DNA of 64,000 nucleotides from Bacteroidales bacterium. Its GTDB lineage: Bacteria; Bacteroidota; Bacteroidia; Bacteroidales; PXBB01. Below are positions 1,170 through 43,362 of the stretch, one piece after another (position 1 is the stretch's first letter; each line of letters starts with the position of its first letter). The stretch is from assembly GCA_003565735.1 (NCBI GenBank), contig PXBB01000015.1:2175-66174 (forward strand), in the 5' to 3' direction. A program made the position numbers and the translations under genes. Under the pieces are notes generated by a model that made no database searches, had not been told where the DNA came from, and saw nothing but the letters and a program-made list of their open reading frames with translations.

Positions 1170-3512
1170 ATGTTTCTTTTAAAGCGTTTATTGTGGCATC
1201 ATTTAGTATTGGCTTTGTTGTTGTTGCTGCTGTGCCACAATAAAACACAGGCCCAATTGATAATCACCCCTAATTCAACGGCACAGCAGTTAGTTGACAC
1301 CCTGGCAGGTGGTGGTGTGACAGTTTTAAACCCTACATTTGGTGGTGCTGCTAACTCCAGAGGCGTTTTTACAACAGGGCCAAATCCGACCAACTTAGGC
1401 ATCAGCTCAGGAATTATTATGTCGTCAGGAAATGTTATTGATGCTGTTGGACCTAACAACATGATGGGTACATCAACTGCTTTCGACAATAACCCCGTTA
1501 CAGCACAACACCCACATCTGGCAGCTTTGGTACAAGGCATTCCTTTGTATGATGTGTGTTATTTAGAATTTGATTTTATTCCCGAATCTGACACTGTTGA
1601 ATTCAGATATGTTTTTGCTTCTGAAGAGTACCCTACTTTTGTTGGCACCAGCTATAATGACGTTTTTGCTTTTTTTATTACGGGCCCCAATCCTGCCGGT
1701 GGCAATTATGACCATGAAAACATTGCGCTTGTTCCCGGCACCAACTTATTTGTTGCTATAAATAATGTGAATGCAGGATTTAATTCTCAGTATTATGTTA
1801 ACAATCATGCCGTTGGGCAAGGCACTGTCGAATACAATGGTTTTACGACAGTTTTGACCGCCAGGGCTTATGTTATACCCTGCGAAACATATACTTTAAG
1901 ACTCACTATTGGCGATGCCGGTGATGCTATTTATGATTCTGCCGTATTTTTGGAAGCTCAAAGTTTTGCCTCTACAAATATTTCAATGGATACAGAGTAC
2001 ACTTATTTACCTGTTGATAGTGCTGCTATTAGAGGCTGCAGTGATGCCATTGTCACTTTTACCATCTCTGATAATGTAAGTACTGATCTCACAATTCCTT
2101 TTTTAATAGGTGGCTCGGCTGTGATGGGTGTCGATTATCAGCCCATACCCGATTCTGTAGTCATTCCTGCCGGACAGAATTCAGCAACTGTTGTTATAGA
2201 ACCTATTTACACAGGTCAACCCGACCCTATTGTGGATGTCATTTTATATGCTCAAACCTCTGTTTGTTCTCCTGAACTAGACAGTTTGCAAGTGCTTATT
2301 TTGCCTAATGAAGATTTGCACACCGAAGCCATGCTCAATGATACTACTATTATATGCAATGATGATGTGGAGCTTTGGATAGAAGTGGCAGGAGGTGTAC
2401 CCCCCTACACTTATGAGTGGGATAATGGCGTGGGAGTAGGCAATTATGTGTCTGTGAATCCTATAACTCAAACAGTTTATACCGTGACCGTTACAGATGA
2501 TTGTGGACAGGTACATACAGACCAAGTTACCGTAAATGTGATTATGGACTACGGAAGTGTACCCAATGACACCCTGATTTGTGCAGGTGATGTAATAAGC
2601 CTTACTGCTGAGGGTGGCATAAGTTACTTATGGAGTACTGGCGACACTACTGAAACGATAACTGTACAACCTACCCAAACAACAACCTATTCAGTTACCA
2701 TATATGATGGTTGTGAAATGGTGGAAAGTGTCGTAGTAGAGGTACAACCCTTGCCGGTGGTAACAATAACGCCTGATAGTGAAACCATTTGTGAAGGTAA
2801 AGAGGTTAATTTCATTGTTAACGACGGCGTGACCTATTTGTGGTCTTCCAGCCCTATAGATGCATCGTTAACTAATCAAATTAATCAACAATCAATATAT
2901 GTAACGCCACAGGAAACAACAACATATACTGTAGAACTTACCGATTCGTTGGGCTGTGTTGGTATAGGAACAGCAACAATAAACATAAGTCCAAGTCCGG
3001 TTGCTGATTTTATAGCAGACCCGGAGGCTGCAAATATTCTGGACCCCACTATCAACTTCATTGATAATTCTATAGGAGCTGTTTTTTGGGAATGGTTATT
3101 AGGAGATGGCAGTACCTACAGTGTACCAAACTTTCAGCATGTTTTTTCTGACACCGGCAGATATTCAGTAAATTTGTGGATTGAAAATGACTTTGGATGC
3201 AGGGATTCAATAACCGGATTTGTTACAATACACCCTAACTACATAATATACGTGCCTTCTGCATTTACCCCTGATGGTGATTACATTAATGATGTTTTTT
3301 ATGCCTATGGCAAAGGTGTTATTGAGTTTGAGATGCTCATCTTTGACAGATGGGGAAAGAACATTTTTACATCTAATGATATCAATAAAGGATGGGATGG
3401 CCGTGTGGAGAATAAAGATGCCCCGAAAGGTGTTTACGGCTATGTTATAGAATACGTGGACGTAATGGGTAATAGGCATTTGAAAAGAGGCACAGTAACT
3501 TTGATACGTTAA
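1170..3512 (+). CDS. Large secreted adhesin-like protein: choice-of-anchor-L-like N-domain, Calx-beta-like domain, three Cys-containing Ig-like repeats, a PKD domain and a T9SS type B (gliding-motility-associated) C-terminal domain
   Basis: ORF 1119..3512. I prefer the internal ATG at 1170, which starts a signal peptide (MFLLKRLLWHHLVLALLLLLLCHNKTQAQ). There are three ~65-aa repeats of the type CxGDxVxLTAxGGxxYxWSTGxTT..TTTYxVTxxDxxGC. The C-terminus IYVPSAFTPDGDYINDVFYAYG...FDRWGKNIFTS...GWDGR...KGVYGYVIEYVD..G matches the type B sorting domain. Confidence 0.8.
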   Translation: MFLLKRLLWHHLVLALLLLLLCHNKTQAQLIITPNSTAQQLVDTLAGGGVTVLNPTFGGAANSRGVFTTGPNPTNLGISSGIIMSSGNVIDAVGPNNMMGTSTAFDNNPVTAQHPHLAALVQGIPLYDVCYLEFDFIPESDTVEFRYVFASEEYPTFVGTSYNDVFAFFITGPNPAGGNYDHENIALVPGTNLFVAINNVNAGFNSQYYVNNHAVGQGTVEYNGFTTVLTARAYVIPCETYTLRLTIGDAGDAIYDSAVFLEAQSFASTNISMDTEYTYLPVDSAAIRGCSDAIVTFTISDNVSTDLTIPFLIGGSAVMGVDYQPIPDSVVIPAGQNSATVVIEPIYTGQPDPIVDVILYAQTSVCSPELDSLQVLILPNEDLHTEAMLNDTTIICNDDVELWIEVAGGVPPYTYEWDNGVGVGNYVSVNPITQTVYTVTVTDDCGQVHTDQVTVNVIMDYGSVPNDTLICAGDVISLTAEGGISYLWSTGDTTETITVQPTQTTTYSVTIYDGCEMVESVVVEVQPLPVVTITPDSETICEGKEVNFIVNDGVTYLWSSSPIDASLTNQINQQSIYVTPQETTTYTVELTDSLGCVGIGTATINISPSPVADFIADPEAANILDPTINFIDNSIGAVFWEWLLGDGSTYSVPNFQHVFSDTGRYSVNLWIENDFGCRDSITGFVTIHPNYIIYVPSAFTPDGDYINDVFYAYGKGVIEFEMLIFDRWGKNIFTSNDINKGWDGRVENKDAPKGVYGYVIEYVDVMGNRHLKRGTVTLIR

Positions 3513-33645: not shown

Positions 33646-34926
33646 ATGGATACAAATAAAACAATAGCCACAGCCCTATTTACAGGCTTCTTTGCCTTAG
33701 TGCTGTTTTCTTCATGTGTAAAAGATGATTTTGACACACCCCCTATTAAAGAAATACCCGAGGGGCACATTCTTACCGTAGAACAGCTTAGAGATATGCA
33801 CCAGGGTGTATCGATCAAATTTACGGGCGACTCATCAGTTTATGCTACGGTAACGATGGACGCTCAAAGTGGAAATATTTACCGCAATGCTTATGTGCAA
33901 GACCATACCGGTGCCATTGTGTTGCGCACCTTGTCGCCCGGTGGCTTATACCTTGGCGACTCCCTGCGCATATACCTAAAAGGTGCGGTTTTGTCTTCGT
34001 ACAATGGCATGCTTCAACTCGACTCTGTTGATGTTGATTATAACATTATTAAACAAAAAACAGGCGTGCCTTTTAGCCCTGAGATTTTTGACGACCTTTC
34101 TGCTATTAACACCGGCCATCAGGCTCAACTCATTAAACTTGAAAATGTGCAATTTGCTAACAGTGAGCTGGGTAAAACCTTTGCCGACCCTGTTAACCTG
34201 CAAAATGTAAACCGCATGCTTGAAGATGTTTTTGGCAATCAGATTATTGTCAGAACCAGCGGCTATGCCAGCTTTGCAGGAGACACACTGCCTGAAGGCA
34301 GCGGCTCTATGGTGGCTATTGTTGGCGAATACAACGGCATTATGCAGCTCTACATCAGATCGAAAGAAGAAATTAAAATGAATCAGCCCCGCTTAGGCAT
34401 AGACTCTTACATCACTATACTTGAAGAAGATTTTCAAACAACAACAGAGTTTCAGGAAGTAAATGTCAATGGGTGGCAAAGTATTGCCGAAGAAGGCACA
34501 AGAAGATGGGTCGGCAGAGTGCACCAAGGCGATAGATATGCACAGGTGTCAGCTCACGGTAGTGGTGAACCCTCTAATATTGCATGGCTGATCAGCCCAC
34601 CAATCAATATTGACGGTTATGATATTGTATTGTTAAACTTCCAGACAGCTTTCGAACATTGGGTGCATGATGCCTTATCTGTTTTTATTTCAACGGATTA
34701 CGATGGCAGCGACCCCACTTCCGCTTATTGGCAAAATCTGACCAGTGCTGTTATTGCTACTAATGAAGATGGCTTTCATAACTGGATCAACTCCGGCAAT
34801 GTAAACCTTTCTGCATATTCGGGCGATATACATATAGGATTCAGATATGAAGGAAGCGGCACAGGCGGGCAAACTACCACTTACAGGGTCAATAATGTCA
34901 AGGTTTTAGGCGCTCAGCAAGACTAG
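33646..34926 (+). CDS. Surface lipoprotein with an OB-fold (DUF5689-like) N-domain and a choice-of-anchor-J-like C-domain, partner of the upstream TonB-dependent receptor
   Basis: Lipobox LFSSC. OB-fold-like segment VYATVTMDAQSGNIYRNAYVQDHTGAIVLRT...GDSLRIYLKGAVLSSYNGMLQLDSV. C-terminal jelly-roll-like domain (WQSIAEEGTRRW...AWLISPPINI...LNFQTAFEHW...VFISTDYDG). Lies 21 nt downstream of the receptor gene. Confidence 0.6.
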   Translation: MDTNKTIATALFTGFFALVLFSSCVKDDFDTPPIKEIPEGHILTVEQLRDMHQGVSIKFTGDSSVYATVTMDAQSGNIYRNAYVQDHTGAIVLRTLSPGGLYLGDSLRIYLKGAVLSSYNGMLQLDSVDVDYNIIKQKTGVPFSPEIFDDLSAINTGHQAQLIKLENVQFANSELGKTFADPVNLQNVNRMLEDVFGNQIIVRTSGYASFAGDTLPEGSGSMVAIVGEYNGIMQLYIRSKEEIKMNQPRLGIDSYITILEEDFQTTTEFQEVNVNGWQSIAEEGTRRWVGRVHQGDRYAQVSAHGSGEPSNIAWLISPPINIDGYDIVLLNFQTAFEHWVHDALSVFISTDYDGSDPTSAYWQNLTSAVIATNEDGFHNWINSGNVNLSAYSGDIHIGFRYEGSGTGGQTTTYRVNNVKVLGAQQD

Positions 34927-34979: not shown

Positions 34980-35435
34980 TCAGACCGGCTGGTTGTCTTC
35001 AGCAAACCATTCGGCATAAGATGTTTCGGTTTCCTGAAGTTTGAGGCTGTAAAGCTCCATATCGTTATTCAATACCGACCGGATACGCACAGAAAAGTCC
35101 AGCAGCAGGTTTTCACAAGTGGGCTGATAGTCAACCATAATTGTCCTTTCCGAAAAACTGCGCAAAAGCGCTTTATCTACTCCGGGTGTTTGACCATTTA
35201 TAAGCAAGGCATGATCGAATACTGATATGATATGCTTTTTGATGACTTTATTTATTTCCGAAAAATCAACGACCATCCCTTTCTTAGGGTTTCCCTCTTC
35301 TGTACTTGGTGTTCCACGAAGAGTAACCCACAAAACATAAGAATGGCCATGTATATTTTTACACAAACCATCGTAACCCGTCAATGCATGTGCCATTTCA
35401 AAATTAAAGCGCTTTGTAATCCGTATTTTTTGCAT
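34980..35435 (-). CDS. queD: 6-carboxy-5,6,7,8-tetrahydropterin synthase / 6-pyruvoyl-tetrahydropterin synthase family
   Basis: FEMAHAL...CKNIHGHSYVLWVTLRG (CxxxHGH Zn site), VVDFSEI and DHALLI. Confidence 0.85.
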   Translation of the reverse strand: MQKIRITKRFNFEMAHALTGYDGLCKNIHGHSYVLWVTLRGTPSTEEGNPKKGMVVDFSEINKVIKKHIISVFDHALLINGQTPGVDKALLRSFSERTIMVDYQPTCENLLLDFSVRIRSVLNNDMELYSLKLQETETSYAEWFAEDNQPV

Positions 35436-35527
35436 CTTACATACGTTTTTTTTTTAAACAATGCAGGCTAATAAATGCTGCAAATTTAATCATAATTTAC
35501 CACAATCATCCAACAATTGAAAAACAC

Positions 35528-35670
35528 CTTAAATCCGCAAAGAACTCGCTACTACATATCTGAATTGCACACCAACTGAGGAAATGCTCAACATTCCAAT
35601 CTTCATCATTGATAAGGCTACGCTTACAGTGCTCATATTTGCGCTTCTCTCTTCACTTTACTTCGTTTCG
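35528..35670 (-). repeat. Truncated copy B of the 20.7-kb MITE-like element (one terminal repeat retained, inverted relative to copy A)
   Basis: Begins with CTTAAATCCG (35528-35537). 35528-35647 aligns to the reverse complement of 20754-20873 at roughly 100 of 120 positions by eye (for example ctgaattgcacacc, ggaaatgctcaa, ggctacgcttaNagtgctcatatttgcgcttc). Similarity fades after ~35650, and the second terminal repeat is absent. Confidence 0.7.
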
Positions 35671-35691
35671 TTCAGAATAACAAGGTACTTT

Positions 35692-35731
35692 GTCATTCTG
35701 AACTCCGATTACCATCGGAGTTCAGAATGAC
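35692..35731. repeat. Perfect 18-bp inverted repeat with a 4-nt loop (REP-like hairpin), plus an upstream third arm
   Basis: GTCATTCTGAACTCCGAT (35692-35709), tacc, ATCGGAGTTCAGAATGAC (35714-35731). GTTCAGAAT at 35670-35678 can alternatively pair with ATTCTGAAC at 35695-35703. Confidence 0.9.
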
Positions 35732-35734
35732 ATA

Positions 35735-35976
35735 AGAAGCCGGCGGAGCCTTGACTTTTATCAAGCAAAAAGAACGTAGAAAAAAACTGCATTTTATCTT
35801 AGCCAGAGAAGAAATCAAAAATAGTATGCCCATAGCAAGCTGGCATAGTCCAACTCGGTTTTATGAAACACTTCCATGAAACACTTCCATTTGTATCTGT
35901 ATTTTTACAATAAATCTCAGCACTTATGCGTTTAATTAATATTTTGCACGGAAACAATCAATAAAAGGCTATGTAG
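35735..35976 (+). repeat. Noncoding leader module, copy 1 (upstream of the beta-barrel gene). Homologous to 37176-37347 but carries a ~130-nt internal insertion.
   Basis: Shared blocks are gccggcgGagcc; aagcaaaaagaacGtaGaaaaaaa (35763-35787); and acttatgcgTttaattaatattttgCACggaaaCAATCaataaaaggctatgtag (35922-35976). The module ends 25 nt before the ATG at 36002. Confidence 0.75.
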
Positions 35977-36001
35977 TAAAGCATTTAAGAAAAACGACCA
36001 T

Positions 36002-36652
36002 ATGAGAATAACACTAACAGTTTTAATATCATTATTGACAACTACATTCTTATTTGGGCAGAAATTTTCTGTGGGCGGAGAAATAGGATTTATCTCATCA
36101 ATTAATACAAACTTTAAAATTGCCGATATTGAAAACCGAAGAAATACATATTATACAGGTCTCAGCTTGAATTACAAGTATGACGACAGACTATCATTTA
36201 CAACGGGATTTCATTATTTGCGACAGGGCTATCGTCATTCAACCTGTTACATATTTGAAGAAGGGGTAAAGAATGAGTTAGTAGGTAAGATTGATTATTT
36301 AACCATACCTTTATCTGTAAATATTGACTTACTAAAGTCAAGAAAATTAATTGCGACTTTTGGACTTCTAGGAGCATACAATATAAAGGCAGTTCAAGAT
36401 TATCCAGAACCAATAGGCGGTTGCCTCATATACTACGAAAGAGACTTAACTAAATCTATTAAACAACATTCGCTGTATGGTACTTTTGGTATTGGATACA
36501 AGGTGTTTAAAACAGAAAATGTAGTGTTGATATCAAATATTAAATATTATCAAGGGCTAACAAATATAAAGAGAAACCCTTACCCTAATATTACATGGGT
36601 TGATAAATACAGCTCACTTCTATTAACATTAAGCTTAAACTACACACTATGA
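36002..36652 (+). CDS. Small outer-membrane beta-barrel protein (porin-family/OmpW-like size class)
   Basis: Signal peptide MRITLTVLISLLTTTFLFGQ. Repeated amphipathic strand pattern (FSVGGEIGF, YYTGLSLNYKY, LSFTTGFHYLRQGY, YGTFGIGYKVF, LLLTLSLNYTL). Visibly AT-rich coding sequence. Confidence 0.65.
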   Translation: MRITLTVLISLLTTTFLFGQKFSVGGEIGFISSINTNFKIADIENRRNTYYTGLSLNYKYDDRLSFTTGFHYLRQGYRHSTCYIFEEGVKNELVGKIDYLTIPLSVNIDLLKSRKLIATFGLLGAYNIKAVQDYPEPIGGCLIYYERDLTKSIKQHSLYGTFGIGYKVFKTENVVLISNIKYYQGLTNIKRNPYPNITWVDKYSSLLLTLSLNYTL

Positions 36653-37008
36653 GAAGCTTTGCAACTTTATCATTTATAATGACACTTTTGGTGAGCTGTG
36701 AGAAAGAAAAATTCCCAGAACAGAAACAATTACAAGGGACTTGGAAAGAAATAACCGAAAACACCTTCAAACATAAATTACGTTTTGAGAATGAAACTAT
36801 GTATTTCTTCAAATCAAATTCTATCGATACCCTAACATTCAGACTTGATGATAATAAAGAAAGGATGTATTTACAATTAAAGAATCACAATTCAGAAATT
36901 GAGTCCAAACATAAAATAAAACTTAATAAAAAAAGAAACGAGTTGACAGTATGGAATTTATTTATAACAATTGGGAATGAAACAGAAACAATATTTAAGA
37001 AGGAATAG
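36649..37008 (+). CDS. Small lipoprotein of unknown function, translationally coupled to the upstream beta-barrel gene
   Basis: ATGA start/stop overlap at 36649-36652. Lipobox LLVSC followed by a ~95-aa Lys/Glu-rich beta-type domain (LQGTWKEITENTFKHKLRFENETMYFF...). Confidence 0.55.
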   Translation: MRSFATLSFIMTLLVSCEKEKFPEQKQLQGTWKEITENTFKHKLRFENETMYFFKSNSIDTLTFRLDDNKERMYLQLKNHNSEIESKHKIKLNKKRNELTVWNLFITIGNETETIFKKE

Positions 37009-37175
37009 AAAAACGCCCTATAACAGCAGAGCTTTGCACAATGGTGGCGAGGAAGAAACAGATATTAGAGTTTGCGGTTAAAACACAAATTGATATAGCG
37101 GCAGCGTGCAATCAAGTAACTCGTATTCTGCTACAGTGCCGGCTCGCCGTTTTGTCCAGCCTGACCGCAAAAAAA

Positions 37176-37347
37176 CTGCCGGCGAAGCCCTTTTCCCCGG
37201 CATCGCCTATATTACGCCAATTGTAAAAATGCCAAACACTTAATGCCAAAAGCCTCTTCATTAAGCAAAAAGAACTTAAAAAAATAACAATACTTATGCG
37301 ATTAATTAATATCTTTGTAGGGAAAGGTTTAATAAAGGACTATTGTG
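37176..37347 (+). repeat. Noncoding leader module, copy 2 (upstream of mrr)
   Basis: Shared blocks are gccggcgAagcc; aagcaaaaagaacTtaAaaaaata (37263-37287); and acttatgcgAttaattaatatctttgTAGggaaaGGTTTaataaaggactattgtg (37292-37347). About 80% identity to copy 1 over the 3-prime ~55 nt. Confidence 0.75.
37310..37317 (+). promoter_or_regulatory. Candidate -7 promoter box TATCTTTG (TAnnTTTG) inside leader module copy 2
   Basis: Exact consensus match 80 nt upstream of the mrr ATG. The equivalent position in copy 1 (35939-35946, atattttg) is one base off consensus. Confidence 0.4.
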
Positions 37348-37397
37348 TTGTGCATCAAAATGGGTTGACAAATAACATTTATTAGAAAAAATATAAT

Positions 37398-38294
37398 ATG
37401 GAATTACCAAAATATCATGAGACTTTCTTGCCGATTTTAGAAACATTAAATTCTGCAGAATCGCTTAAAAGTAGAGAACTAGCAGTTATTGTAAAAAATA
37501 ACTATTACTCTCATTTGCCTGAAGAATTACTTAAACAAAAAACCAGTTCTGGTTCGAATGTTTTACTTGACAGGATACTTTGGGGTAAGTCATATCTAAA
37601 AATGGGGAAATTTGTTTCATACCCTAAACGAGGCATCGTTCAAATAACAGAAAAGGGAAAACAAGTTTTAGTTAAAGGTTCCTTGTCTTTACATGACCTT
37701 CAAAATGATCAAGATTTTATCAACCATAGAGAATCAGTAAAAACTGAAAAAGAAAATGATATTGATATAGATCCGATTAAAGTTGAGAATGCTTCGCCAC
37801 AAGACTTAATTGATTCAGGCTTTTCAACTATTGAAAAACAAGTAAAAACTGAACTTTTAGAGAAACTAAAAGAAATAGACCCATATTATTTTGAGAAAGT
37901 TATCCTTATTCTTCTTAAAAAAATGGGATATGGTGATTTTGTCGAAACGTTAAAATCAAGTGATGGTGGAATTGATGGTATAATAAATGAAGACAAGTTA
38001 GGTCTTGAAAAAATTTACACTCAAGCAAAACGCTATAATGAGAACAAAGTACGTGAAAAAGACATAAGAAATTTTATTGGAGCTATGAGTGGAGATACAA
38101 GAAAAGGTGTTTTTATAACAACATCAACTTTTGATGATTCTGCTATTAAAAAAGCAAGAGAAGCACATCATTCTATTATTTTGATTGACGGAGCTAAATT
38201 GGTTGATTTAATGCATCAATATAATGTTGGTATACAAGTAAAAACTATTTACGAAGTGAAAGAGATTGATAACGACTTTTTTGAAGAAGAATAA
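37398..38294 (+). CDS. mrr: Mrr-type (type IV, modification-dependent) restriction endonuclease
   Basis: N-terminal winged-helix Mrr_N-like domain (YHETFLPILETLNS...RILWGKSYLKMGKFVSYPKRGIVQITEKG). C-terminal Mrr_cat PD-(D/E)xK core (FEKVILILLKKMGYG...SSDGGIDGIINEDKLGLEKIYTQAKRY). Confidence 0.88.
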   Translation: MELPKYHETFLPILETLNSAESLKSRELAVIVKNNYYSHLPEELLKQKTSSGSNVLLDRILWGKSYLKMGKFVSYPKRGIVQITEKGKQVLVKGSLSLHDLQNDQDFINHRESVKTEKENDIDIDPIKVENASPQDLIDSGFSTIEKQVKTELLEKLKEIDPYYFEKVILILLKKMGYGDFVETLKSSDGGIDGIINEDKLGLEKIYTQAKRYNENKVREKDIRNFIGAMSGDTRKGVFITTSTFDDSAIKKAREAHHSIILIDGAKLVDLMHQYNVGIQVKTIYEVKEIDNDFFEEE

Positions 38295-38456
38295 CTAAGC
38301 ACAATCGAGTAGCTACCCACCAGCTAACAATTTTAACATAGTTTTCCTTGTTTGCAGTTTGATATGATTTTGAGCCTCACTACGAAGTTCTAATGCATAA
38401 TGCGAGTTCTAAAAGCTACCGCCAAGAGCCCAAAAGAAAGCATAAAGCTAAAGAGC

Positions 38457-41087
38457 TTATCTGTTTAGTTTTCCGGCAAGTACAGCCGTTTTTTTATATT
38501 TTTTCACCTGACCGTTAACATCAAAAACCTCAACAAAAATGATGTAAATGCCGATATTTGCTTTAAGGTTATCATCTGTAATGCCATTCCAGGAAAACAT
38601 ACCGCTGGTGCCTAACAATTCATTGTTTACCAGGTGGCGCACTTGTCGTCCACGGGCATCATATATAACAATGCTGGCCACATAACCCGGATTTTCGAAT
38701 TTATAAGCTACGTTAAGGACATCATCATGGCCATCGTTATCAGGAGAAAAAACTTTAGGATATACCGTAATGGCGACATCATCTGCTTCAAGGACAATAC
38801 CGAATTGAGAGTTTTTATATCCCGGGGTACCATAGCCGGCGCCGGCAGCAGCCGAATGCCAATTTGTACGATCATCAGAGGGGCGCTCATAGTGGATACG
38901 CTCCAGAGAAACACCCTTTACATCTCTTAGCAAAGGATAGTGCATACCCTCTTCATAAACGAGCATATCTATTTCTTCAGCTGCTGCATTTGCTATAACG
39001 GCAATACCACTGCTGTTATTAAACTGAGGCAAAGATGGCATTTCAACAAAATTTTGAGGATAGGGCGTGTGGTAAAAAGGTTTAACCCTATGATTGTTAG
39101 AAGTAAGCACTATATAATCTTCGGGAAACATCAGGTAACTGCTTGCCGATATGTTTCTTATTTGCGTCAGCTCATCTAAAATGGTATCCTTAGAGCTGAG
39201 TCTTAAAGTCTGCAAATCAATGATCTTGGAGGAACGGTTATAAATTTCCACATACTCCGTCCCACCAACAGGGGGATTAAAAAGTATTTCATTGATGACA
39301 ATATCGTTTGGTTCGGCCGGTTGTGGTAAACCAAAATAGGCCGTGTTATTATCAGAAAGCTGAAGCCCCACGCAGTCTTCTAAAGCCTGGGAGACGGTTA
39401 TTTTGTAGATGGTTCCGGTTTGCAGCTCAACAGGCAATTCAAGGATTACCGACTTGAATAAAGGGCTTTGTGGCATGAGGCTTAAAGGTTGCCCAATGCC
39501 ATTATCTATGGAATAGTATTGTGGTATATCAAGTGAATGGGGTAACATGCGTTGGTCGAAGAACACTTCTACAGTCACGGAATCAATAATACCTACCCTC
39601 AATACTGAAGGTTTGAGGGTATCAGGATTATCGGCAATAATTGAATTTTCATATCCGGGTGTTCCACCGGTGGGGTCTTCAGAGGCTCTCCAGTTAGCCA
39701 TACCACCACAAGGGTTTGCGGCATCAATCATTTCGAGAGACCACCCGCCATTTCTTTTCTGGTTATCATCATACCAGTCATCCGTATATGCAAGCGCATG
39801 AATGATATTGTTTTGTGCATCGGATAAAACCAGGGTTGTGCCAGCATTTGTCAGTGCTGTTGCAGAAAGTCCGGGTACAGCTACCACATTTCCATAGGCA
39901 GCCAACTCGGGATAAGCATTTTCTGTAACCAGTAATACATAACCCTCCGGCTCAATGACAGCATCAGGGATGATACGTACTGTTTGTGCATGTTGCAAAT
40001 GCCAGTCTCTGAGATTTATTGGATAGGGGGTGCGGTTGTATAACTCAATGTACTCATGCGGGGGAAGGCCTACTGCCGGTGTAGGGTCAACCATAAGCTC
40101 ATTGAAAACAACATCATGCAATACAGGGATATAGTAAACAAACTGCTTAGATTGCGTCTGCATAGTATTGCCGCTAAGGTCCATAATGTTCCGGGCGGTT
40201 ATAATGTATGGCAGGGTTTGCGTAAAGCTGCCGGTAAAGGAAAGTTCTACAACATTAAAAGAGCCGGCAACAAAGGAAGCCTGTGCAGGCTGCCCTACCC
40301 CCATATCAACCTCGTAGTTAGACAGGTCAAGCGCAGTAGTGGGTTCTAATGCCTTATTAAAAACAAGCTCCAAAGAATTATCTGACAGCACATTAACCAT
40401 TTCAATCTGTGGGGGTATGGTATCCGGGATTATCTGCCCGACATAGAAGTCGTCGAAATAAAACCTGTTAACATTAGTGGTTGTATATTTGCAAAGAACG
40501 CCAAAAAAAGCGGTTGCGTTATAGGTTTGGTCTATGGCACTGCCTTGAGGGAAAAAAGCATGACCGCCGAGCGGGTCGCAAAACATTTCCCATAAGCCAT
40601 TACCATCGCGCGTCACTCTTATTCTCAGCAAATTATTACTTCCTGTTGCAAGATTATCCAATCCTTCAATAAGCTGCGTCTTTTGTGTTCCGTCCTGCCT
40701 GAACAAATACAAGCGCTTATTATCGGTGCCGGTTTTACCAATTTGGATATAATATCCGTTAAGGGGCCCTCTTAAATCAGCATTGTCGGACGCCAGATAA
40801 ATCACAGCATGGTTATTGTCGGACGGTGTAAAGGCAAGACGTACAAAAAAACGCCATTCGGTTTGTTCAACAATGCTGCTTTCTGTTACCAGATAAGAGC
40901 TGTCGGGGAAAGGACCCTGCGAGGGAGATGTCAGCCTTAACTGATAATTTTCAACACTAAAGTGTGAAACATCCCCTGACCATGAAGGATTGTGGGTAAA
41001 GTTACCATTGCTGAAATCGTCTGTAAACTGGGCATGACAAAAGACAGGAATTATTAATATAAAAATAAATATTTTTTTCATATACAT
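38457..41087 (-). CDS. Large secreted lamin-tail-domain (LTD) protein with a C-terminal beta-sandwich resembling a T9SS type B / FlgD-Ig-like domain
   Basis: Signal peptide MYMKKIFIFILIIPVFCHAQ. Two LTD units (VVFNELMVDPTP...EYIELYNRTPYPINLRDW and IVINEILFNPPVGGTEYVEIYNRSSKIIDL). C-terminus FSPDNDGHDDVLNVAYKF...IYDARGRQVRHL...FSWNG...GIYIIFVEV. Confidence 0.7.
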   Translation of the reverse strand: MYMKKIFIFILIIPVFCHAQFTDDFSNGNFTHNPSWSGDVSHFSVENYQLRLTSPSQGPFPDSSYLVTESSIVEQTEWRFFVRLAFTPSDNNHAVIYLASDNADLRGPLNGYYIQIGKTGTDNKRLYLFRQDGTQKTQLIEGLDNLATGSNNLLRIRVTRDGNGLWEMFCDPLGGHAFFPQGSAIDQTYNATAFFGVLCKYTTTNVNRFYFDDFYVGQIIPDTIPPQIEMVNVLSDNSLELVFNKALEPTTALDLSNYEVDMGVGQPAQASFVAGSFNVVELSFTGSFTQTLPYIITARNIMDLSGNTMQTQSKQFVYYIPVLHDVVFNELMVDPTPAVGLPPHEYIELYNRTPYPINLRDWHLQHAQTVRIIPDAVIEPEGYVLLVTENAYPELAAYGNVVAVPGLSATALTNAGTTLVLSDAQNNIIHALAYTDDWYDDNQKRNGGWSLEMIDAANPCGGMANWRASEDPTGGTPGYENSIIADNPDTLKPSVLRVGIIDSVTVEVFFDQRMLPHSLDIPQYYSIDNGIGQPLSLMPQSPLFKSVILELPVELQTGTIYKITVSQALEDCVGLQLSDNNTAYFGLPQPAEPNDIVINEILFNPPVGGTEYVEIYNRSSKIIDLQTLRLSSKDTILDELTQIRNISASSYLMFPEDYIVLTSNNHRVKPFYHTPYPQNFVEMPSLPQFNNSSGIAVIANAAAEEIDMLVYEEGMHYPLLRDVKGVSLERIHYERPSDDRTNWHSAAAGAGYGTPGYKNSQFGIVLEADDVAITVYPKVFSPDNDGHDDVLNVAYKFENPGYVASIVIYDARGRQVRHLVNNELLGTSGMFSWNGITDDNLKANIGIYIIFVEVFDVNGQVKKYKKTAVLAGKLNR

Positions 41088-41176
41088 TTTGTTTGCGAAC
41101 GTAAAAATACTATTTTTGTTTATAAATATATTTACTATTCCTAAAAAAATTACAGGATTAATAAAAACTAAAGTTT

Positions 41177-42166
41177 ATGAAATTAGCAGTCGTAGGCATT
41201 ACCGGATTAGTGGGTCGGGTCATAACAGAAGTTCTCGAAGCCTATAAGTTGCCATTAAGCATGTTCATTCCTGTTGCTTCGGCAAGATCTGCCGGCAAGC
41301 AGGTACAGTTTTGCAAGCAAGCTTACACAGTATTAACACCAGAGGAAGCACTTGAGATGCATCCCGATATAGTAATTTTTTCAGCCGGCAGCGACACATC
41401 CAAAAAGTGGGCACCTGAATTTGTGCGGGCTGGCAGCTACGTCGTTGACAATTCGTCAGCCTGGCGTATGGATGAAAGCGTCCCCTTGATAGTGCCTGAA
41501 GTAAACGGGAACATACTGAAAAAGCACCACAAAATAATAGCCAACCCTAATTGTTCTACCATTCAACTGGTGGTAGCCTTGGCACCTTTGCACACAGTTT
41601 ACGGAATAAAAAAAATACATATAGCAACCTATCAATCTGTTAGTGGCTCGGGCAAAGAAGCTGTTGAACAACTAAATGCGGAGAGGCGTGGCATGAAAAG
41701 TAAACAGGCATACCCCCACCCCATCGATTTGAATTGCTTTCCTTTTGGTGGCTCATTTTTAGACAACGGTTATTCAACTGAAGAAATGAAGCTGGTACAT
41801 GAAACACGAAAAATATTAGGCGCACCTGCTATTGAAGTCAATGCTACTGTGGTTCGTATTCCTGTTTTAGGAGGGCACTCGGAAGCTGTTTATGTAGAAT
41901 TTGAAAAAAATGTTGACATAGATACTGTTAATCAACTGTTGCAGAAGGCTAAAGGAGTTGAAGTTCAAGATGATATAGCTCAGCATCTTTACCCTATGCC
42001 TTTGTATGCCGAAAACAGAGATGAGGTATTTGTAGGACGGATACGCAAAGGCCTTTTTAACGACCACTCAGTCCATATGTGGATAGTAGCCGACAACCTT
42101 CGGAAAGGAGCTGCTACCAACGCTGTACAAATAGCCCAAATAATTATAAATAATAAATTTTTGTAA
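41177..42166 (+). CDS. asd: Aspartate-semialdehyde dehydrogenase
   Basis: VVGITGLVGR (NAD(P) binding), the active-site block IIANPNCSTIQLVVAL, SVSGSGK, and GHSEAVYVEF. Confidence 0.93.
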   Translation: MKLAVVGITGLVGRVITEVLEAYKLPLSMFIPVASARSAGKQVQFCKQAYTVLTPEEALEMHPDIVIFSAGSDTSKKWAPEFVRAGSYVVDNSSAWRMDESVPLIVPEVNGNILKKHHKIIANPNCSTIQLVVALAPLHTVYGIKKIHIATYQSVSGSGKEAVEQLNAERRGMKSKQAYPHPIDLNCFPFGGSFLDNGYSTEEMKLVHETRKILGAPAIEVNATVVRIPVLGGHSEAVYVEFEKNVDIDTVNQLLQKAKGVEVQDDIAQHLYPMPLYAENRDEVFVGRIRKGLFNDHSVHMWIVADNLRKGAATNAVQIAQIIINNKFL

Positions 42167-42182
42167 ACTAAAAACTAATATC

Positions 42183-42824
42183 ATGGAAAAAGAAAATCTA
42201 CGTGAGGAAAAACTGTTAAATCCCTCAGAAATAGCCAATATTAGAATCCTTGGCGGACTGGGTGCCCTTTTTGCTTTGGCAGGCATCATACCTTACATTG
42301 GCTGGCTGCTCTCTGTAGCAAGCATTGTGTTATTGCTGATAAGCTTTTACAAAATATCTTTCTTATCAGGCAAAAAGTTCATTTTTAATTATATCCTCAT
42401 CTCTGTTTTGCTAGGTTTTGCTATGGCAATGGTAGTCGTACTTATTATCATTTTTTCTTTTATGGAAGCTTTAAAATTCAGCCATTTCGATATGCAGCAT
42501 TTTATAGACACCTTTAGGGTTGAAGGCAGTATTCTTTATACTATCCTGATGATTTTAGTATTTATTTATGCCCTGTCTATTGTTGTTGCATTTTTATGGA
42601 AGAGAAGCCTGGAGGGATGCGCTTTGTTCTTTAAGGAAAAACTGTTTTCTACAGCCGGTTTATTATTTGTTATCGGGGCTTTCACTTTAATACTATGCGG
42701 TATTGGTATTCTTGTGAGTCTTGCTGGTTATATAGTTTTAGCCATAGCTTTCTTTTCAATAAAACCCATCATCCCGGAACAAGAAAAAAGTGCTGACATC
42801 ATGGATGTGCCTGCGTCAGATTAA
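42183..42824 (+). CDS. Multi-pass integral membrane protein of unknown function
   Basis: 213 aa with about 5 hydrophobic helices (ILGGLGALFALAGIIPYIGWLLSVASIVLLLI, ILISVLLGFAMAMVVVLIIIF, and others). Lies 16 nt downstream of asd. Confidence 0.5.
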   Translation: MEKENLREEKLLNPSEIANIRILGGLGALFALAGIIPYIGWLLSVASIVLLLISFYKISFLSGKKFIFNYILISVLLGFAMAMVVVLIIIFSFMEALKFSHFDMQHFIDTFRVEGSILYTILMILVFIYALSIVVAFLWKRSLEGCALFFKEKLFSTAGLLFVIGAFTLILCGIGILVSLAGYIVLAIAFFSIKPIIPEQEKSADIMDVPASD

Positions 42825-43362
42825 AATTTTCAGGATATTTGGCATTTTTTCCTGTATAAAATGCTTTAATAATTTTGAAATCGGCCTCATAAATGCCCTG
42901 AGGATACAAAACAGTATCACTCAAGCCGCATCTTTTGTGTTTATAATCAATGTACCCCATAAGTATAGGCACTCCGGCAGCCTGCGCTATGGTATAAAAA
43001 CCTTTTTTCCAGTTGTTGGTATATTTACGGGTGCCTTCAGGAGTAATAACAAGGTACATCTTTTTGGATTTTTTAAACAAATCAACCAGTTGTTTGACAG
43101 TTCTTTTGGGATTTTTCCTGTCAACTGGGACGCCCCCACACCTTTTTAACAACCAGCCCAGCGGTGTGTTGAAAGCTTCTTTCTTAATCATAAAATGGAA
43201 CTTAACACCCAGCACATTGGATGCATGCCAGCCAACATAAAAATCACTATAGCTGGTATGGGGAGCCTGTATTATAATAGCTTTGTTTATGTGTGTAGGT
43301 ATTTGCCCGGAAAGTTTCCACCCATAGCTTTTTAAAACCAATCGAGAGAATATTTTTAACAT
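42799..43362 (-). CDS. 1-acyl-sn-glycerol-3-phosphate acyltransferase family protein (PlsC-like)
   Basis: HxxxxD acyltransferase motif in IIQAPHTSYSDF, then LVITPEGTR (the xxEGTR block). Confidence 0.75.
   Translation of the reverse strand: MLKIFSRLVLKSYGWKLSGQIPTHINKAIIIQAPHTSYSDFYVGWHASNVLGVKFHFMIKKEAFNTPLGWLLKRCGGVPVDRKNPKRTVKQLVDLFKKSKKMYLVITPEGTRKYTNNWKKGFYTIAQAAGVPILMGYIDYKHKRCGLSDTVLYPQGIYEADFKIIKAFYTGKNAKYPENFNLTQAHP

What the first reader, a model, noticed from the sequence alone, without database searches (positions are those of the whole stretch)
35436..38456. AT-rich three-gene accessory island (beta-barrel plus coupled lipoprotein, then Mrr) between queD and the LTD surface-protein gene
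Most genes in this window are separated by 0-150 nt. This 3-kb stretch instead has 566-, 389- and 162-nt noncoding spacers full of repeat debris. Its three genes (36002-36652, 36649-37008, 37398-38294) are visibly more AT-rich than both flanks; compare 36002-36060 with 34500-34560. The content is a 216-aa outer-membrane beta-barrel whose stop overlaps (ATGA) the start of a 119-aa lipoprotein, followed by a stand-alone Mrr type IV restriction enzyme. Each unit is preceded by the same noncoding module. This looks like horizontally acquired, cassette-like cargo. As pure inference, the outer-membrane pair and Mrr could be two layers of one phage-resistance island (surface exclusion or receptor masking, plus restriction of modified DNA), or simply independent cargo.
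Basis: partly seen in the sequence, partly recalled or inferred. Interest (0 to 1): 0.6.

Follow-up and report, generated by a model that had tools for sequence, protein, structure and literature searches.

The report
Fossil integron gene cassettes in Bacteroidota
This AT-rich 3-kb stretch is foreign DNA made of two separately acquired mobile gene cassettes, one for an outer-membrane barrel plus a small lipoprotein and one for an Mrr restriction enzyme; their recombination sites have decayed, so they are now fixed between housekeeping genes and are not one coordinated defence system.

Summary
Three real genes are present: an OMP_b-brl_2 barrel, a lipoprotein overlapping it by ATGA, and a full-length Mrr. 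They are the three lowest-GC ORFs of 47 in the window, and the spacers are unusually long. The "same module" claim is only partly true: about 68+28 nt at about 80% identity, upstream of the barrel gene and mrr only.

Homologs of the barrel gene in other Bacteroidota contigs are textbook integron gene cassettes. They start at G|TTATAGGGC, end at GCCCTATAAC, and are followed by 124-134-nt attC hairpins with strong covariation. The same 862-bp cassette (99.5% identical) lies in two different arrays. The window keeps the 3' box intact, but its 5' box is mutated. It has no detectable attC and no integrase among the ORFs tested.

mrr is a discrete ~0.96-kb unit, 90% nucleotide-identical to copies in unrelated defence islands. 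It is bounded by cassette-like inverted boxes (GTTGTGC…GCACAAT), but no canonical attC was found beside any copy.

Neither the barrel nor the lipoprotein gene lies near Mrr in any other locus examined. So the cargo is horizontally acquired, cassette-derived and independent, not a two-layer defence island. Interest is moderate, mainly because integron cassettes are rarely reported in Bacteroidota.

The parts
35436..35738 (.). Left part of spacer A. It holds the queD upstream region (a TAnnTTTG box on the minus strand at 35488) and repeat debris: a perfect 19-bp hairpin at 35691-35732 plus a third, imperfect copy of GTCATTCTGAAC at 35670-35681.
   Evidence: (hairpin z = -6.1)
35739..35972 (+). 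Module copy A. It starts with GCCGGCGGAGCC. The conserved pieces are 35757-35784 and 35905-35972, split by a ~120-nt insertion (35785-35904) that contains a 13-nt tandem duplication (35863-35888). It has a near-consensus -7 box, TATTTTG, at 35940-35946. Its last 34 nt are 85% identical to the sequence abutting the barrel cassette in L011.
35973..35982 (+). Mutated 5' cassette boundary (R'-equivalent): GTAGTAAAGC where intact cassettes have GTTATAGGGC. Homology to barrel cassettes in L022, L029 and L023 begins at 35980-35981.
36002..36652 (+). 216-aa outer-membrane 8-stranded beta-barrel (PF13568) with a signal peptide. It has conserved Cys82 and Cys141 and conserved motifs in the predicted extracellular loops L2 and L3.
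   Evidence: pLDDT 88; OmpA/Ail/OmpW/OmpX-like
36649..37008 (+). 119-aa small lipoprotein (lipobox LVSC) whose start overlaps the barrel stop (ATGA). The family is tiny (5 homologs) and has no Pfam match. The AF2 model is all-beta but low confidence.
37009..37025 (+). Intact 3' cassette boundary, AAAAACGCCCTATAACA. R'' is CTATAAC at 37018-37024, and GCCCTATAA is the reverse complement of the cassette's 5' TTATAGGGC. It is 100% identical after barrel genes in L020, L021 and L029 and about 95% in L022. All homology to other cassettes stops at 37025-37028.
37026..37176 (+). Probable decayed attC body. An L''-like start (AGCAGAGCTTTGC...) and an L'-like end (GACCGCAAAAAAAC, 37163-37176) are present. 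There is no GTT R' box, no significant fold and no significant model hit.
   Evidence: z > 0; 9.1 bits, E=3.6; alignment to the L020 attC scores 60 against a shuffle mean of 42.5 and maximum of 66.5: weak
37177..37343 (+). Module copy B. It starts with TGCCGGCGAAGCC and carries a perfect Bacteroidota -7 box, TATCTTTG, at 37310-37317 (88 nt before the mrr ATG). It lies between the L'-like end of the decayed attC and the mrr unit's GTT box.
37347..37353 (+). 5' boundary box of the mrr unit, GTTGTGC (fits the R' consensus GTTRRRY except at one of the three R positions). The 90% nucleotide homology to L030-L036 begins at 37346/37347.
37398..38294 (+). 298-aa Mrr type IV restriction endonuclease (Mrr_N winged helix + Mrr_cat PD-(D/E)xK, with DGGIDG...QAK present). 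It matches the PADLOC mREase_IV model end to end.
   Evidence: E=2.4e-52
38299..38305 (+). 3' boundary box of the mrr unit, GCACAAT. It is the reverse complement of the 5' box except for one base. Homology to other mrr loci ends at 38298-38304.
38306..38456 (.). Spacer C, running up to the stop codon of the convergent LTD gene. It has no module copy, no attC by the model, and no significant fold.

Best explanation
The interval between queD and the LTD gene holds two independently acquired, integron-type gene cassettes that are now immobilised in the chromosome. Unit 1 (about 35973-37176) is a two-gene cassette encoding an 8-stranded outer-membrane barrel and a translationally coupled small lipoprotein. 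Unit 2 (37347-38305) is a single-gene Mrr type IV restriction cassette-like unit. In other Bacteroidota, unit 1 is a working cassette: it begins at the G|TT crossover of an upstream attC, ends with its own attC, and moves between arrays. In this genome the recombination sites have decayed. The 5' GTT box of unit 1 is mutated, its attC lacks an R' box and no longer scores as an attC, and no integrase was found among the ORFs tested. The genes are therefore fixed. (Inferred) Each unit is preceded by a copy of an AT-rich module of about 165-230 nt carrying a Bacteroidota-type -7 promoter box. This module probably supplies transcription to cassettes that are otherwise promoterless. (Inferred from family) Mrr cleaves modified foreign DNA. 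The barrel and lipoprotein are cell-envelope accessory proteins with a conserved, probably disulfide-linked surface-loop motif and an unknown ligand. The two units are not functionally linked.
For: Composition is foreign: the three genes have the lowest GC of 47 ORFs, and mrr has GC3 = 0.18. Barrel homologs are flanked 5' by ...AAAmC|GTTATAGGGCATTTwAAAtGACGAC..ATG, with unrelated sequence upstream, and 3' by GAAAAACGCCCTATAAC, its reverse complement. Twelve flanking sites of 124-195 nt fit the R''-L''...L'-R' structure: 78% of cells pair against 27-36% in slid controls, all 10 L-box pairs covary, and 0/500 shuffles reach the observed score. Covariance model R1 scores them at E=1e-5 to 1e-11 and finds one new site. 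L020 and L021 share an 862-bp barrel cassette at 99.5% identity with no homology outside it, breaking at CGTTAT. Homology of the window to these cassettes starts at 35980-81 and stops at 37025-28, i.e. at the boxes. The window has no attC with filters off (best E about 1) and no integrase among the 10 plausible-size ORFs tested. For mrr, more than 100 protein clusters are 84-94% identical across Bacteroidota orders, while the adjacent LTD gene's best relative is 46%. The 90% nucleotide homology to L030-L036 runs exactly 37346/7-38298/304, bounded by GTTGTGC...GCACAAT. L030 has the perfect inverted pair GTTGTACAT...ATGTACAAC. Independence: the barrel or lipoprotein never lies near Mrr in any other locus. 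Promoter inference: TAnnTTTG is 3.7-fold enriched within 150 nt upstream of genes in this window, and a perfect box lies in module B at -88 from mrr. L011 has a perfect box at the equivalent place before its barrel cassette. Literature: small type II/IV restriction systems are prevalent in integron cassettes (bioRxiv 10.1101/2024.07.02.601686). IntI can insert cassettes outside att sites, where expression needs a nearby promoter (bioRxiv 10.1101/2022.09.11.507474).
Against: No attC is detectable in the window, so its cassette status rests on homology to cassettes elsewhere. No integron integrase was seen in any locus examined. No canonical attC was found beside any of the 4 other mrr contexts, so mrr's cassette origin rests only on the boundary boxes. 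Model R1 was trained on 12 sites from 6 loci and may be too narrow, and it was largely tested on its own training loci. The similarity of spacer B to the L020 attC beyond the first ~30 nt is not significant. Module A has only a near-consensus -7 box, and there are no transcription data. Only 10 of 47 window ORFs were screened for recombinase domains.
Confidence: 0.7

Rival explanations
1. Only the barrel(+lipoprotein) unit derives from an integron. mrr arrived by a different route, for example defence-island hotspot exchange, homologous recombination, or an unknown site-specific element that uses GTTG...CAAC termini, and landed next to the cassette by chance or because the site is a permissive gap.
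For: No attC was detected beside mrr in L030-L036, L037/38 or L039-L047. Those contexts are classical defence islands: type III R-M in one, TIR/caspase/PIN/NERD plus a tyrosine-recombinase fragment in another. In L037/38 and L039/40 the homology covers little more than the ORF.
Against: The window, L030 and L036 copies all lose homology at a GTTG box ~50 nt upstream. The window and L030 have inverted complementary boxes at both ends, just like the R'/R'' boxes of cassettes. mrr is preceded by the same module as the barrel cassette, abutting its GTT box. Type IV enzymes are common integron cargo.
Confidence: 0.2
2. A single integrated phage-resistance island: the outer-membrane barrel and lipoprotein mask or exclude at the surface, and Mrr restricts modified DNA, co-selected as one system.
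For: The genes are adjacent, on the same strand, and share an upstream module in this genome. Integron cassettes and defence islands are enriched for anti-phage functions.
Against: Barrel/lipoprotein and Mrr never co-occur in any other locus examined. The barrel and lipoprotein give no PADLOC hits. The barrel's predicted surface loops are its most conserved parts, the opposite of what is expected for a receptor-masking decoy under phage pressure. The two units have separate boundaries and different GC3 (0.26 against 0.18).
Confidence: 0.04
3. An ancestral core locus whose AT-richness and long spacers reflect local mutational or expression constraints rather than horizontal acquisition.
For: All five same-population contigs from three data sets carry the identical arrangement. 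No close relative lacking it could be found.
Against: mrr is 90% nucleotide-identical to copies in unrelated genomic contexts, while flanking genes have at best 46% protein identity to any relative. The barrel unit is a mobile cassette elsewhere. The Lentimicrobiaceae relative keeps asd-LTD but has a ComF-like gene directly at the LTD 3' end.
Confidence: 0.03

Closest known systems
Integron gene cassettes / CALINs and SALINs (attC clusters or single attC sites lacking an integron integrase; Cury et al. 2016, PMC4889954; Néron et al. 2022, PMC9024848; Loot et al., bioRxiv 10.1101/2022.09.11.507474)
   Same: These are short promoterless ORF units on one strand. They are bounded by the G|TTRRRY crossover remnant and a complementary RYYYAAC box. 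Homologs are followed by structured attC sites of ~130 nt and are found in different arrays. No integrase is nearby. The units sit among housekeeping genes, as described for small CALINs and SALINs that may arise by off-site insertion.
   Different: In the window no attC is detectable, so IntegronFinder-type criteria for a CALIN (at least 2 attC) or SALIN (1 attC) would not be met. The 5' GTT of unit 1 is mutated. Each unit is preceded by a duplicated promoter-like module not described for integrons. The host phylum (Bacteroidota) is one where integrons are reported as very rare or absent.
Mrr type IV modification-dependent restriction endonuclease (E. coli Mrr; PADLOC mREase_IV)
   Same: It has the Mrr_N winged-helix plus Mrr_cat PD-(D/E)xK architecture, is a stand-alone single gene, and matches the full-length profile.
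   Different: No NCBIfam equivalog hit was obtained. The specificity is unknown. This particular clade is extraordinarily conserved (84-94% amino-acid identity) across Bacteroidota orders, which implies recent spread.
Small 8-stranded outer-membrane barrels (OmpA N-domain, OmpX/Ail, OmpW; Pfam OMP_b-brl_2, named 'PorT family' by NCBI for some homologs)
   Same: The AF2 model has 8 strands (pLDDT 88). Foldseek matches OmpA, Ail, OprG, OmpW, NspA and OmpX at E=1e-7 to 5e-5, and Pfam PF13568 matches.
   Different: Sequence identity to these is only 10-15%. The family has two near-invariant cysteines and highly conserved loop motifs (YLRQGYRHSTCYIFEEGVKNELVGKIDYL and QDYPEPIGGC) that the model places in extracellular loops. 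There is no NCBIfam hit above cutoff, and function is untested.
Defence islands
   Same: A restriction gene sits in an AT-rich, horizontally acquired segment. Close Mrr homologs lie in bona fide defence islands.
   Different: Here Mrr is the only recognisable defence gene, and its neighbours are envelope proteins with no defence-family match.

Membership tests
Integron gene cassette (barrel+lipoprotein unit) | The 5' end begins at the G|TTRRRY crossover remnant, and the 3' end carries a complementary RYYYAAC (R'') box | tested here: inconclusive
   Homologs have GTTATAGGGC ... GCCCTATAAC. In the window the R'' box is intact (37015-37024) but the 5' box is mutated to GTAGTAAAGC (35973-35982). 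Homology breakpoints fall at the boxes.
Integron gene cassette (barrel+lipoprotein unit) | A structured attC site (R''-L''...L'-R' imperfect hairpin) follows the ORF | tested here: not met
   Window: model R1 with filters off gives only 9.1 bits, E=3.6 at 37014-37087, and the folds have z > 0. The feature is met in homologous loci L011, L020, L021 and L022 downstream, and in L029 upstream, at E=1e-5 to 1e-11, with covariation.
Integron gene cassette (barrel+lipoprotein unit) | The same unit occurs in different arrays with breakpoints at the attC crossover | tested here: met
   L020 and L021 share 862 bp at 99.5% identity with unrelated flanks. L022 and L029 have different neighbours again.
Integron gene cassette (mrr unit) | Complementary R'/R'' boxes at the ends of a discrete mobile unit | tested here: met
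   Window: GTTGTGC (37347) ... GCACAAT (38299-38305). L030: GTTGTACAT ... ATGTACAAC. The 90% nucleotide homology is confined to 37346/7-38298/304.
Integron gene cassette (mrr unit) | An attC site follows the ORF in at least some contexts | tested here: not met
   Model R1 gives no hit at E<=1 in L030-L036, L037/38 or L039-L047. The L030 segment between its two boxes does not fold significantly. The model may be too narrow.
Complete integron | An intI tyrosine recombinase with attI and Pc adjacent to the array | tested here: not met
   None of the 10 window ORFs of plausible size has a Phage_integrase domain. There is none next to the L011, L020 or L021 arrays. The remaining window ORFs were not all screened.
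CALIN (at least 2 attC sites without an integrase) | At least two detectable attC sites clustered together | tested here: not met
   The window has 0 significant attC sites. L011 (3 sites), L020 (at least 3) and L021 (4) do qualify.
Mrr type IV restriction endonuclease | Mrr_N DNA-binding domain plus Mrr_cat PD-(D/E)xK nuclease with the catalytic motif | tested here: met
   PF14338 E=1.7e-17; PF04471 E=3e-33; PADLOC mREase_IV E=2.4e-52 over residues 1-297. DGGIDG...YTQAKRY is visible in the translation.
Mrr type IV restriction endonuclease | Cleavage dependent on DNA modification | not testable with these tools
   This requires biochemistry or methylase co-expression assays.
8-stranded OMP beta-barrel (OMP_b-brl_2) | Signal peptide plus 8 antiparallel transmembrane strands | tested here: met
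   PF13568 E=1.6e-10. The AF2 model has pLDDT 88 and 8 strands. Foldseek matches OmpA, Ail, OmpW and OmpX.
Bacterial lipoprotein | Signal peptide ending in a lipobox [LVI][ASTVI][GAS]C | tested here: met
   MRSFATLSFIMTLLVSC. Cys17 is invariant in all homologs. Lipidation itself was not tested.
Multi-gene phage-defence system (barrel + lipoprotein + Mrr) | Conserved co-occurrence of the components across genomes | tested here: not met
   No co-occurrence in 12 other barrel contexts, 3 further lipoprotein contexts and 4 other Mrr contexts.

The most novel reading that the evidence does not exclude
Bacteroidota, a phylum reported to lack or almost lack integrons, may carry a substantial unrecognised pool of integron-type cassettes in integrase-less arrays. 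The duplicated AT-rich module that abuts the GTT box of both window units, and of the L011 barrel cassette, could be a novel attI-like or promoter 'docking' element that captures and expresses cassettes and then fixes them as their attC sites decay. A related point is that the same barrel ORF keeps its R'/R'' boxes while carrying three unrelated attC cores. This would give a direct handle on how cassettes acquire host-specific attC sites.
Probability: 0.15. Interest if true: 0.65.

Novelty: new member of a known kind. Interest (0 to 1): 0.4.

Why it matters
This finding turns a vague "AT-rich island" into a defined mechanism of origin: integron cassette capture followed by decay. It also shows that cassette-derived genes can be recognised by boundary homology even when attC-based tools would find nothing. 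It documents clear attC arrays in Bacteroidota contigs, including a 3.4-Mb chromosome-scale contig with sprA. In this phylum, surveys of complete genomes report integrons as very rare. It identifies a widely shared outer-membrane barrel cassette with conserved surface loops, and an Mrr clade spreading almost unchanged across Bacteroidota. Both are candidates for functional study. It removes support for a combined surface-plus-restriction defence system.

Tried and rejected
- **Presence/absence polymorphism:** exact-protein look-ups returned only same-population contigs (99.8-100% identical). L005 looked as if it lacked mrr, but it simply ends at 37198. The genome scan for LTD relatives gave only 44-46% homologs, too distant for this test.
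- **RNA elements:** Rfam and tRNA scans found nothing in the spacers.
- **Promoter/terminator scan:** the sigma-70 scan gave no more hits than shuffles and does not suit Bacteroidota.
- **Home-made R''/R' arm-complementarity scanner:** too strict or too noisy, so I replaced it with a covariance model.
- **MFE folding as an attC test:** unreliable, because true attC sites L011a and L022k also give z > 0.
- **Spacer B as a decayed homolog of the L020 attC:** only weakly supported.
- **Module as an attC or ORF-less cassette:** no attC-like fold and no model hit.
- **Integrase next to the arrays:** none found.
- **Plasmid collection search for mrr-unit contexts:** one partial hit, uninformative.
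- **Lipoprotein structure:** pLDDT 61, too low for a fold search.
- **Weak model hits at 42.3-42.9 kb:** these fall in ordinary DUF996 and acyltransferase genes.

Full report
**1. Observation**

The three ORFs exist as described:
- 36002-36652: 216 aa, Pfam OMP_b-brl_2, E=1.6e-10.
- 36649-37008: 119 aa, with its start overlapping the barrel stop as ATGA and an LVSC lipobox.
- 37398-38294: 298 aa, Mrr_N + Mrr_cat, E=3e-33.

The flanks are queD/PTPS (34980-35435, minus strand) and an LTD/Big_5/CHU_C surface protein (38457-41087, minus strand).

The compositional deviation is strong. Among 47 ORFs in the window (mean GC 0.389, sd 0.023), these three are the lowest (0.283, 0.300, 0.316; z = -4.7 to -3.2). 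mrr has GC3 = 0.184 (z = -5.6). The 566- and 389-nt gaps rank first and third in the window (median 52 nt), although four other gaps exceed 330 nt.

The "same module before each unit" claim is only partly right. Spacers A and B share 35905-35972 with 37275-37343 (about 80% identity; score 54 against a shuffle maximum of 36) and 35757-35784 with 37257-37284 (86%). In A these pieces are separated by a ~120-nt insertion. The third spacer lacks the module, and its 21-nt core occurs only twice in 64 kb.

Rfam and tRNA scans found nothing.

**2. Relatives of the locus**

Exact-protein look-ups returned only contigs of the same population (99.8-100% identical). They come from soda-lake MAGs GCA_007136045.1 and GCA_007127545.1 and from metagenome contigs. 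One contig appeared to lack mrr but merely ends at 37198.

The only other genomes with the flanking LTD gene are 44-46% identical. The Lentimicrobiaceae MAG keeps the asd-LTD pair, but a ComF-like gene directly follows the LTD stop. A fine-scale presence/absence test was therefore impossible.

**3. The barrel(+lipoprotein) unit is an integron gene cassette elsewhere**

The barrel family has 85 detected homologs (35-78% identity) in Bacteroidales, Saprospiraceae, Sphingobacteriaceae and Flavobacteriales MAGs.

The sequence just past the window's lipoprotein stop, AAAAACGCCCTATAACA (37009-37025), recurs at 100% identity directly after barrel genes in L020, L021 and L029, and at about 95% in L022. 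None of these has a lipoprotein gene.

Upstream, these barrel genes are preceded by ...AAAmC|GTTATAGGGCATTTwAAAtGACGAC..ATG, with unrelated sequence 5' of GTTAT. TTATAGGGC is the reverse complement of GCCCTATAA. This is the R'/R'' relationship of an integron cassette.

Between R'' and the next GTT lie imperfect inverted repeats of 124-134 nt (one of 195 nt). I aligned the arms of 12 such sites. For the structure R-box + L-box:
- 78% of cells pair, against 27-36% when partner columns are slid.
- All 10 L-box pairs show compensatory changes.
- 0/500 shuffles reach the observed covariation score.

A covariance model built from them (R1) scores the natural full-length sites at E=1e-5 to 1e-11 and finds one further site. 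A caveat is that the model was mostly tested on its own training loci. The covariation count is the independent evidence.

L020 and L021 share an 862-bp barrel cassette at 99.5% identity, with no homology outside it. They break at the upstream and downstream CGTTAT. L011 is a 3.4-Mb contig carrying sprA, so it is Bacteroidota. It has a three-attC array that begins with barrel + lipoprotein and lies between suf genes and sprA, with no integrase.

**4. State of the cassette in the window**

Homology to other barrel cassettes begins at 35980-35981 and ends at 37025-37028, at the boxes. The R'' box is intact, but the 5' box reads GTAGTAAAGC instead of GTTATAGGGC.

Downstream of R'' there is an L''-like start and an L'-like end (GACCGCAAAAAAAC, 37163-37176). 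TGCCGGCG... follows where GTT should be. The segment does not fold significantly, and R1 with filters off finds nothing above noise anywhere in the window (best E about 1; 37014-37087 at 9.1 bits). Its similarity to the L020 attC beyond ~30 nt is weak.

None of 10 plausible-size window ORFs has a recombinase domain; they are housekeeping genes. The cassette is therefore a fossil.

**5. The lipoprotein is an optional second gene**

Only five homologs were found. The overlapping pair recurs in L011, where the lipoprotein carries an in-frame TAG.

L020 and L021 retain a 23-nt, 100%-identical relic of the lipoprotein's 3' end, which suggests deletion of the gene in that lineage. In L018 and L019 the lipoprotein follows a different 121-aa lipoprotein with the same 4-nt overlap. 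There, homology starts after the lipobox (36697) and ends at R''.

The AF2 model is all-beta but low confidence (pLDDT 61).

**6. mrr**

The protein matches the PADLOC type IV model end to end (E=2.4e-52). More than 100 clusters are 84-94% identical, in Carboxylicivirga, Maribacter, Robertkochia, Cyclobacteriaceae and others. This contrasts with 46% for the neighbouring LTD gene and implies recent horizontal spread.

Nucleotide homology at 90% to six loci runs exactly 37346/7-38298/304. It starts at GTTGTGC and ends at GCACAAT, which are inverted complements apart from one base. L030 has the perfect pair GTTGTACAT...ATGTACAAC, and L036 also breaks at a GTTG box.

The other contexts are defence islands:
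- Type III R-M in L030-L035.
- ThsB-TIR, caspase-like, TIR, PIN and NERD genes plus a tyrosine-recombinase fragment in L037/38.
- A same-strand run of small genes in L039-L048.

R1 detects no attC next to any of them, and the L030 inter-box segment does not fold significantly. So mrr is a discrete unit with cassette-type termini, but its integron origin is not proven.

**7. The module**

Both copies end immediately before the GTT-type box of the following unit. The L011 barrel cassette is also preceded by 34 nt that are 85% identical to the module's 3' end (score 38 against a shuffle maximum of 32), rather than by a canonical attC.

TAnnTTTG, the Bacteroidota -7 box (known from the literature on Bacteroidetes promoters; my knowledge), is 3.7-fold enriched within 150 nt upstream of genes in this window. 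A perfect box lies in module B (37310-37317, 88 nt before the mrr ATG), and another lies at the equivalent L011 position. Module A has the near-match TATTTTG.

My inference is that the module supplies a promoter to promoterless cassettes. Whether it is an attI-like platform remnant, a duplicated promoter or a small insertion element is unresolved.

**8. No functional link between the units**

Across 12 other distinct barrel contexts, 3 further lipoprotein contexts and 4 other Mrr contexts, the barrel or lipoprotein never lies near Mrr. The cassettes accompanying the barrel are heterogeneous: a DNA methylase, a PIN-like pair, a Crp-like regulator plus an acyltransferase, an FGE-sulfatase-like protein, and unknowns. 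PADLOC gives no hit for the barrel or lipoprotein.

The barrel model (pLDDT 88) is an 8-stranded OmpA/Ail/OmpW/OmpX-like barrel. Its most conserved motifs and two near-invariant cysteines map to predicted extracellular loops. That argues for a specific surface function rather than a variable phage decoy. This point is an inference.

**9. Comparison with the literature**

- IntegronFinder 2.0 reports only In0 elements and a single complete integron (Salinibacter) in Bacteroidetes complete genomes (PMC9024848).
- Darracq et al. describe Bacteroidota as a clade previously found without integrons, and note that small type II/IV restriction systems are prevalent cassette cargo (bioRxiv 10.1101/2024.07.02.601686).
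- Loot et al. show IntI-mediated insertion of cassettes outside att sites, with expression dependent on nearby promoters. They propose that small CALINs and SALINs arise this way (bioRxiv 10.1101/2022.09.11.507474).

The window fits this known framework as a decayed, integrase-less remnant. It is a new member of a known kind, with the duplicated promoter-like module as the only unusual feature.

**10. Verdict**

The "horizontally acquired cassette-like cargo" reading is supported and sharpened to integron-type cassettes: firmly for the barrel unit, suggestively for mrr. The "two-layer defence island" idea is not supported. Interest is moderate (0.4).

Noticed in passing
L020:5938-6805, L021:296-1163 and 2976-3114, L022:306-1145, L011:7938-9159: The same barrel ORF (73-74% nucleotide identity) keeps its R'/R'' boxes but is attached to three unrelated attC cores. 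The L022 core is 91% identical to the attC behind an unrelated acyltransferase cassette in L021, and the L011 core resembles the other attCs of its own array. This looks like attC-core replacement or homogenisation within each host array, and it bears on how cassettes acquire host-specific attC sites.
   Followed up: partly
window 35670-35732: A perfect 19-bp hairpin (TGTCATTCTGAACTCCGAT / ATCGGAGTTCAGAATGACA, 4-nt loop; DNA fold z = -6.1) has a third, imperfect GTTATTCTGAAC copy just upstream, giving nested inverted repeats. The stem contains ...GAAC/GTTC..., and its function is unknown. It occurs only here in the 64 kb.
   Followed up: partly
window 35785-35904 (tandem copies 35863-35875 and 35876-35888): A ~120-nt insertion splits module copy A relative to copy B. 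It contains an exact 13-nt tandem duplication, ATGAAACACTTCC x2.
   Followed up: no
L011:8001-11364: A 3.4-Mb Bacteroidota contig (it carries sprA) holds a three-attC, integrase-less cassette array (barrel + lipoprotein pseudogene, FGE-sulfatase-like, 297-aa unknown) wedged between the suf operon and sprA. It is a clear CALIN in a phylum where integrons are said to be rare.
   Followed up: partly
window 37398-38294; L030-L048: This Mrr clade is 84-94% identical in protein across several Bacteroidota orders (7,461 homologs at E<=1e-30). It sits in varied defence islands: type III R-M in one, ThsB-TIR/caspase/TIR/PIN/NERD in another, and KAP-NTPase or caspase+TIR variable ends in a third. This implies very recent and wide horizontal spread.
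   Followed up: partly
L018:886-1613, L019:289-1016: These are two-gene cassettes made of two different small lipoproteins that overlap by 4 nt. The second is the homolog of the window's 119-aa protein, and both share an SCKK(D/E)xFP start to the mature protein. The first gene of the cassette appears to be swappable.
   Followed up: partly
window 36002-36652 (residues 70-100 and 130-145): The barrel family's most conserved segments (YLRQGYRHSTCYIFEEGVKNELVGKIDYL and QDYPEPIGGC) and two near-invariant cysteines map to predicted extracellular loops L2 and L3. This suggests a disulfide-stapled, functionally constrained surface site.
   Followed up: partly
window 37198, 36932, 37892 (ends of L005, L004, L003): Three independent assemblies of this population break inside the island. 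One break lies at the start of module copy B, which is consistent with repeat- or coverage-related assembly problems in this segment.
   Followed up: no
window 38457-42166; L007:8927-12601: The divergent asd / LTD-CHU_C gene pair is syntenic with a Lentimicrobiaceae MAG (LTD 44% identical). This places the window organism among Bacteroidales/Lentimicrobiaceae-like soda-lake bacteria. Synteny ends exactly at the LTD 3' end, where the island sits.
   Followed up: partly
window 42183-43362: A second low-GC stretch with strong negative AT skew turned out to be an ordinary DUF996 membrane protein and a PlsC-type acyltransferase. The weak attC-model hits there are chance.
   Followed up: yes
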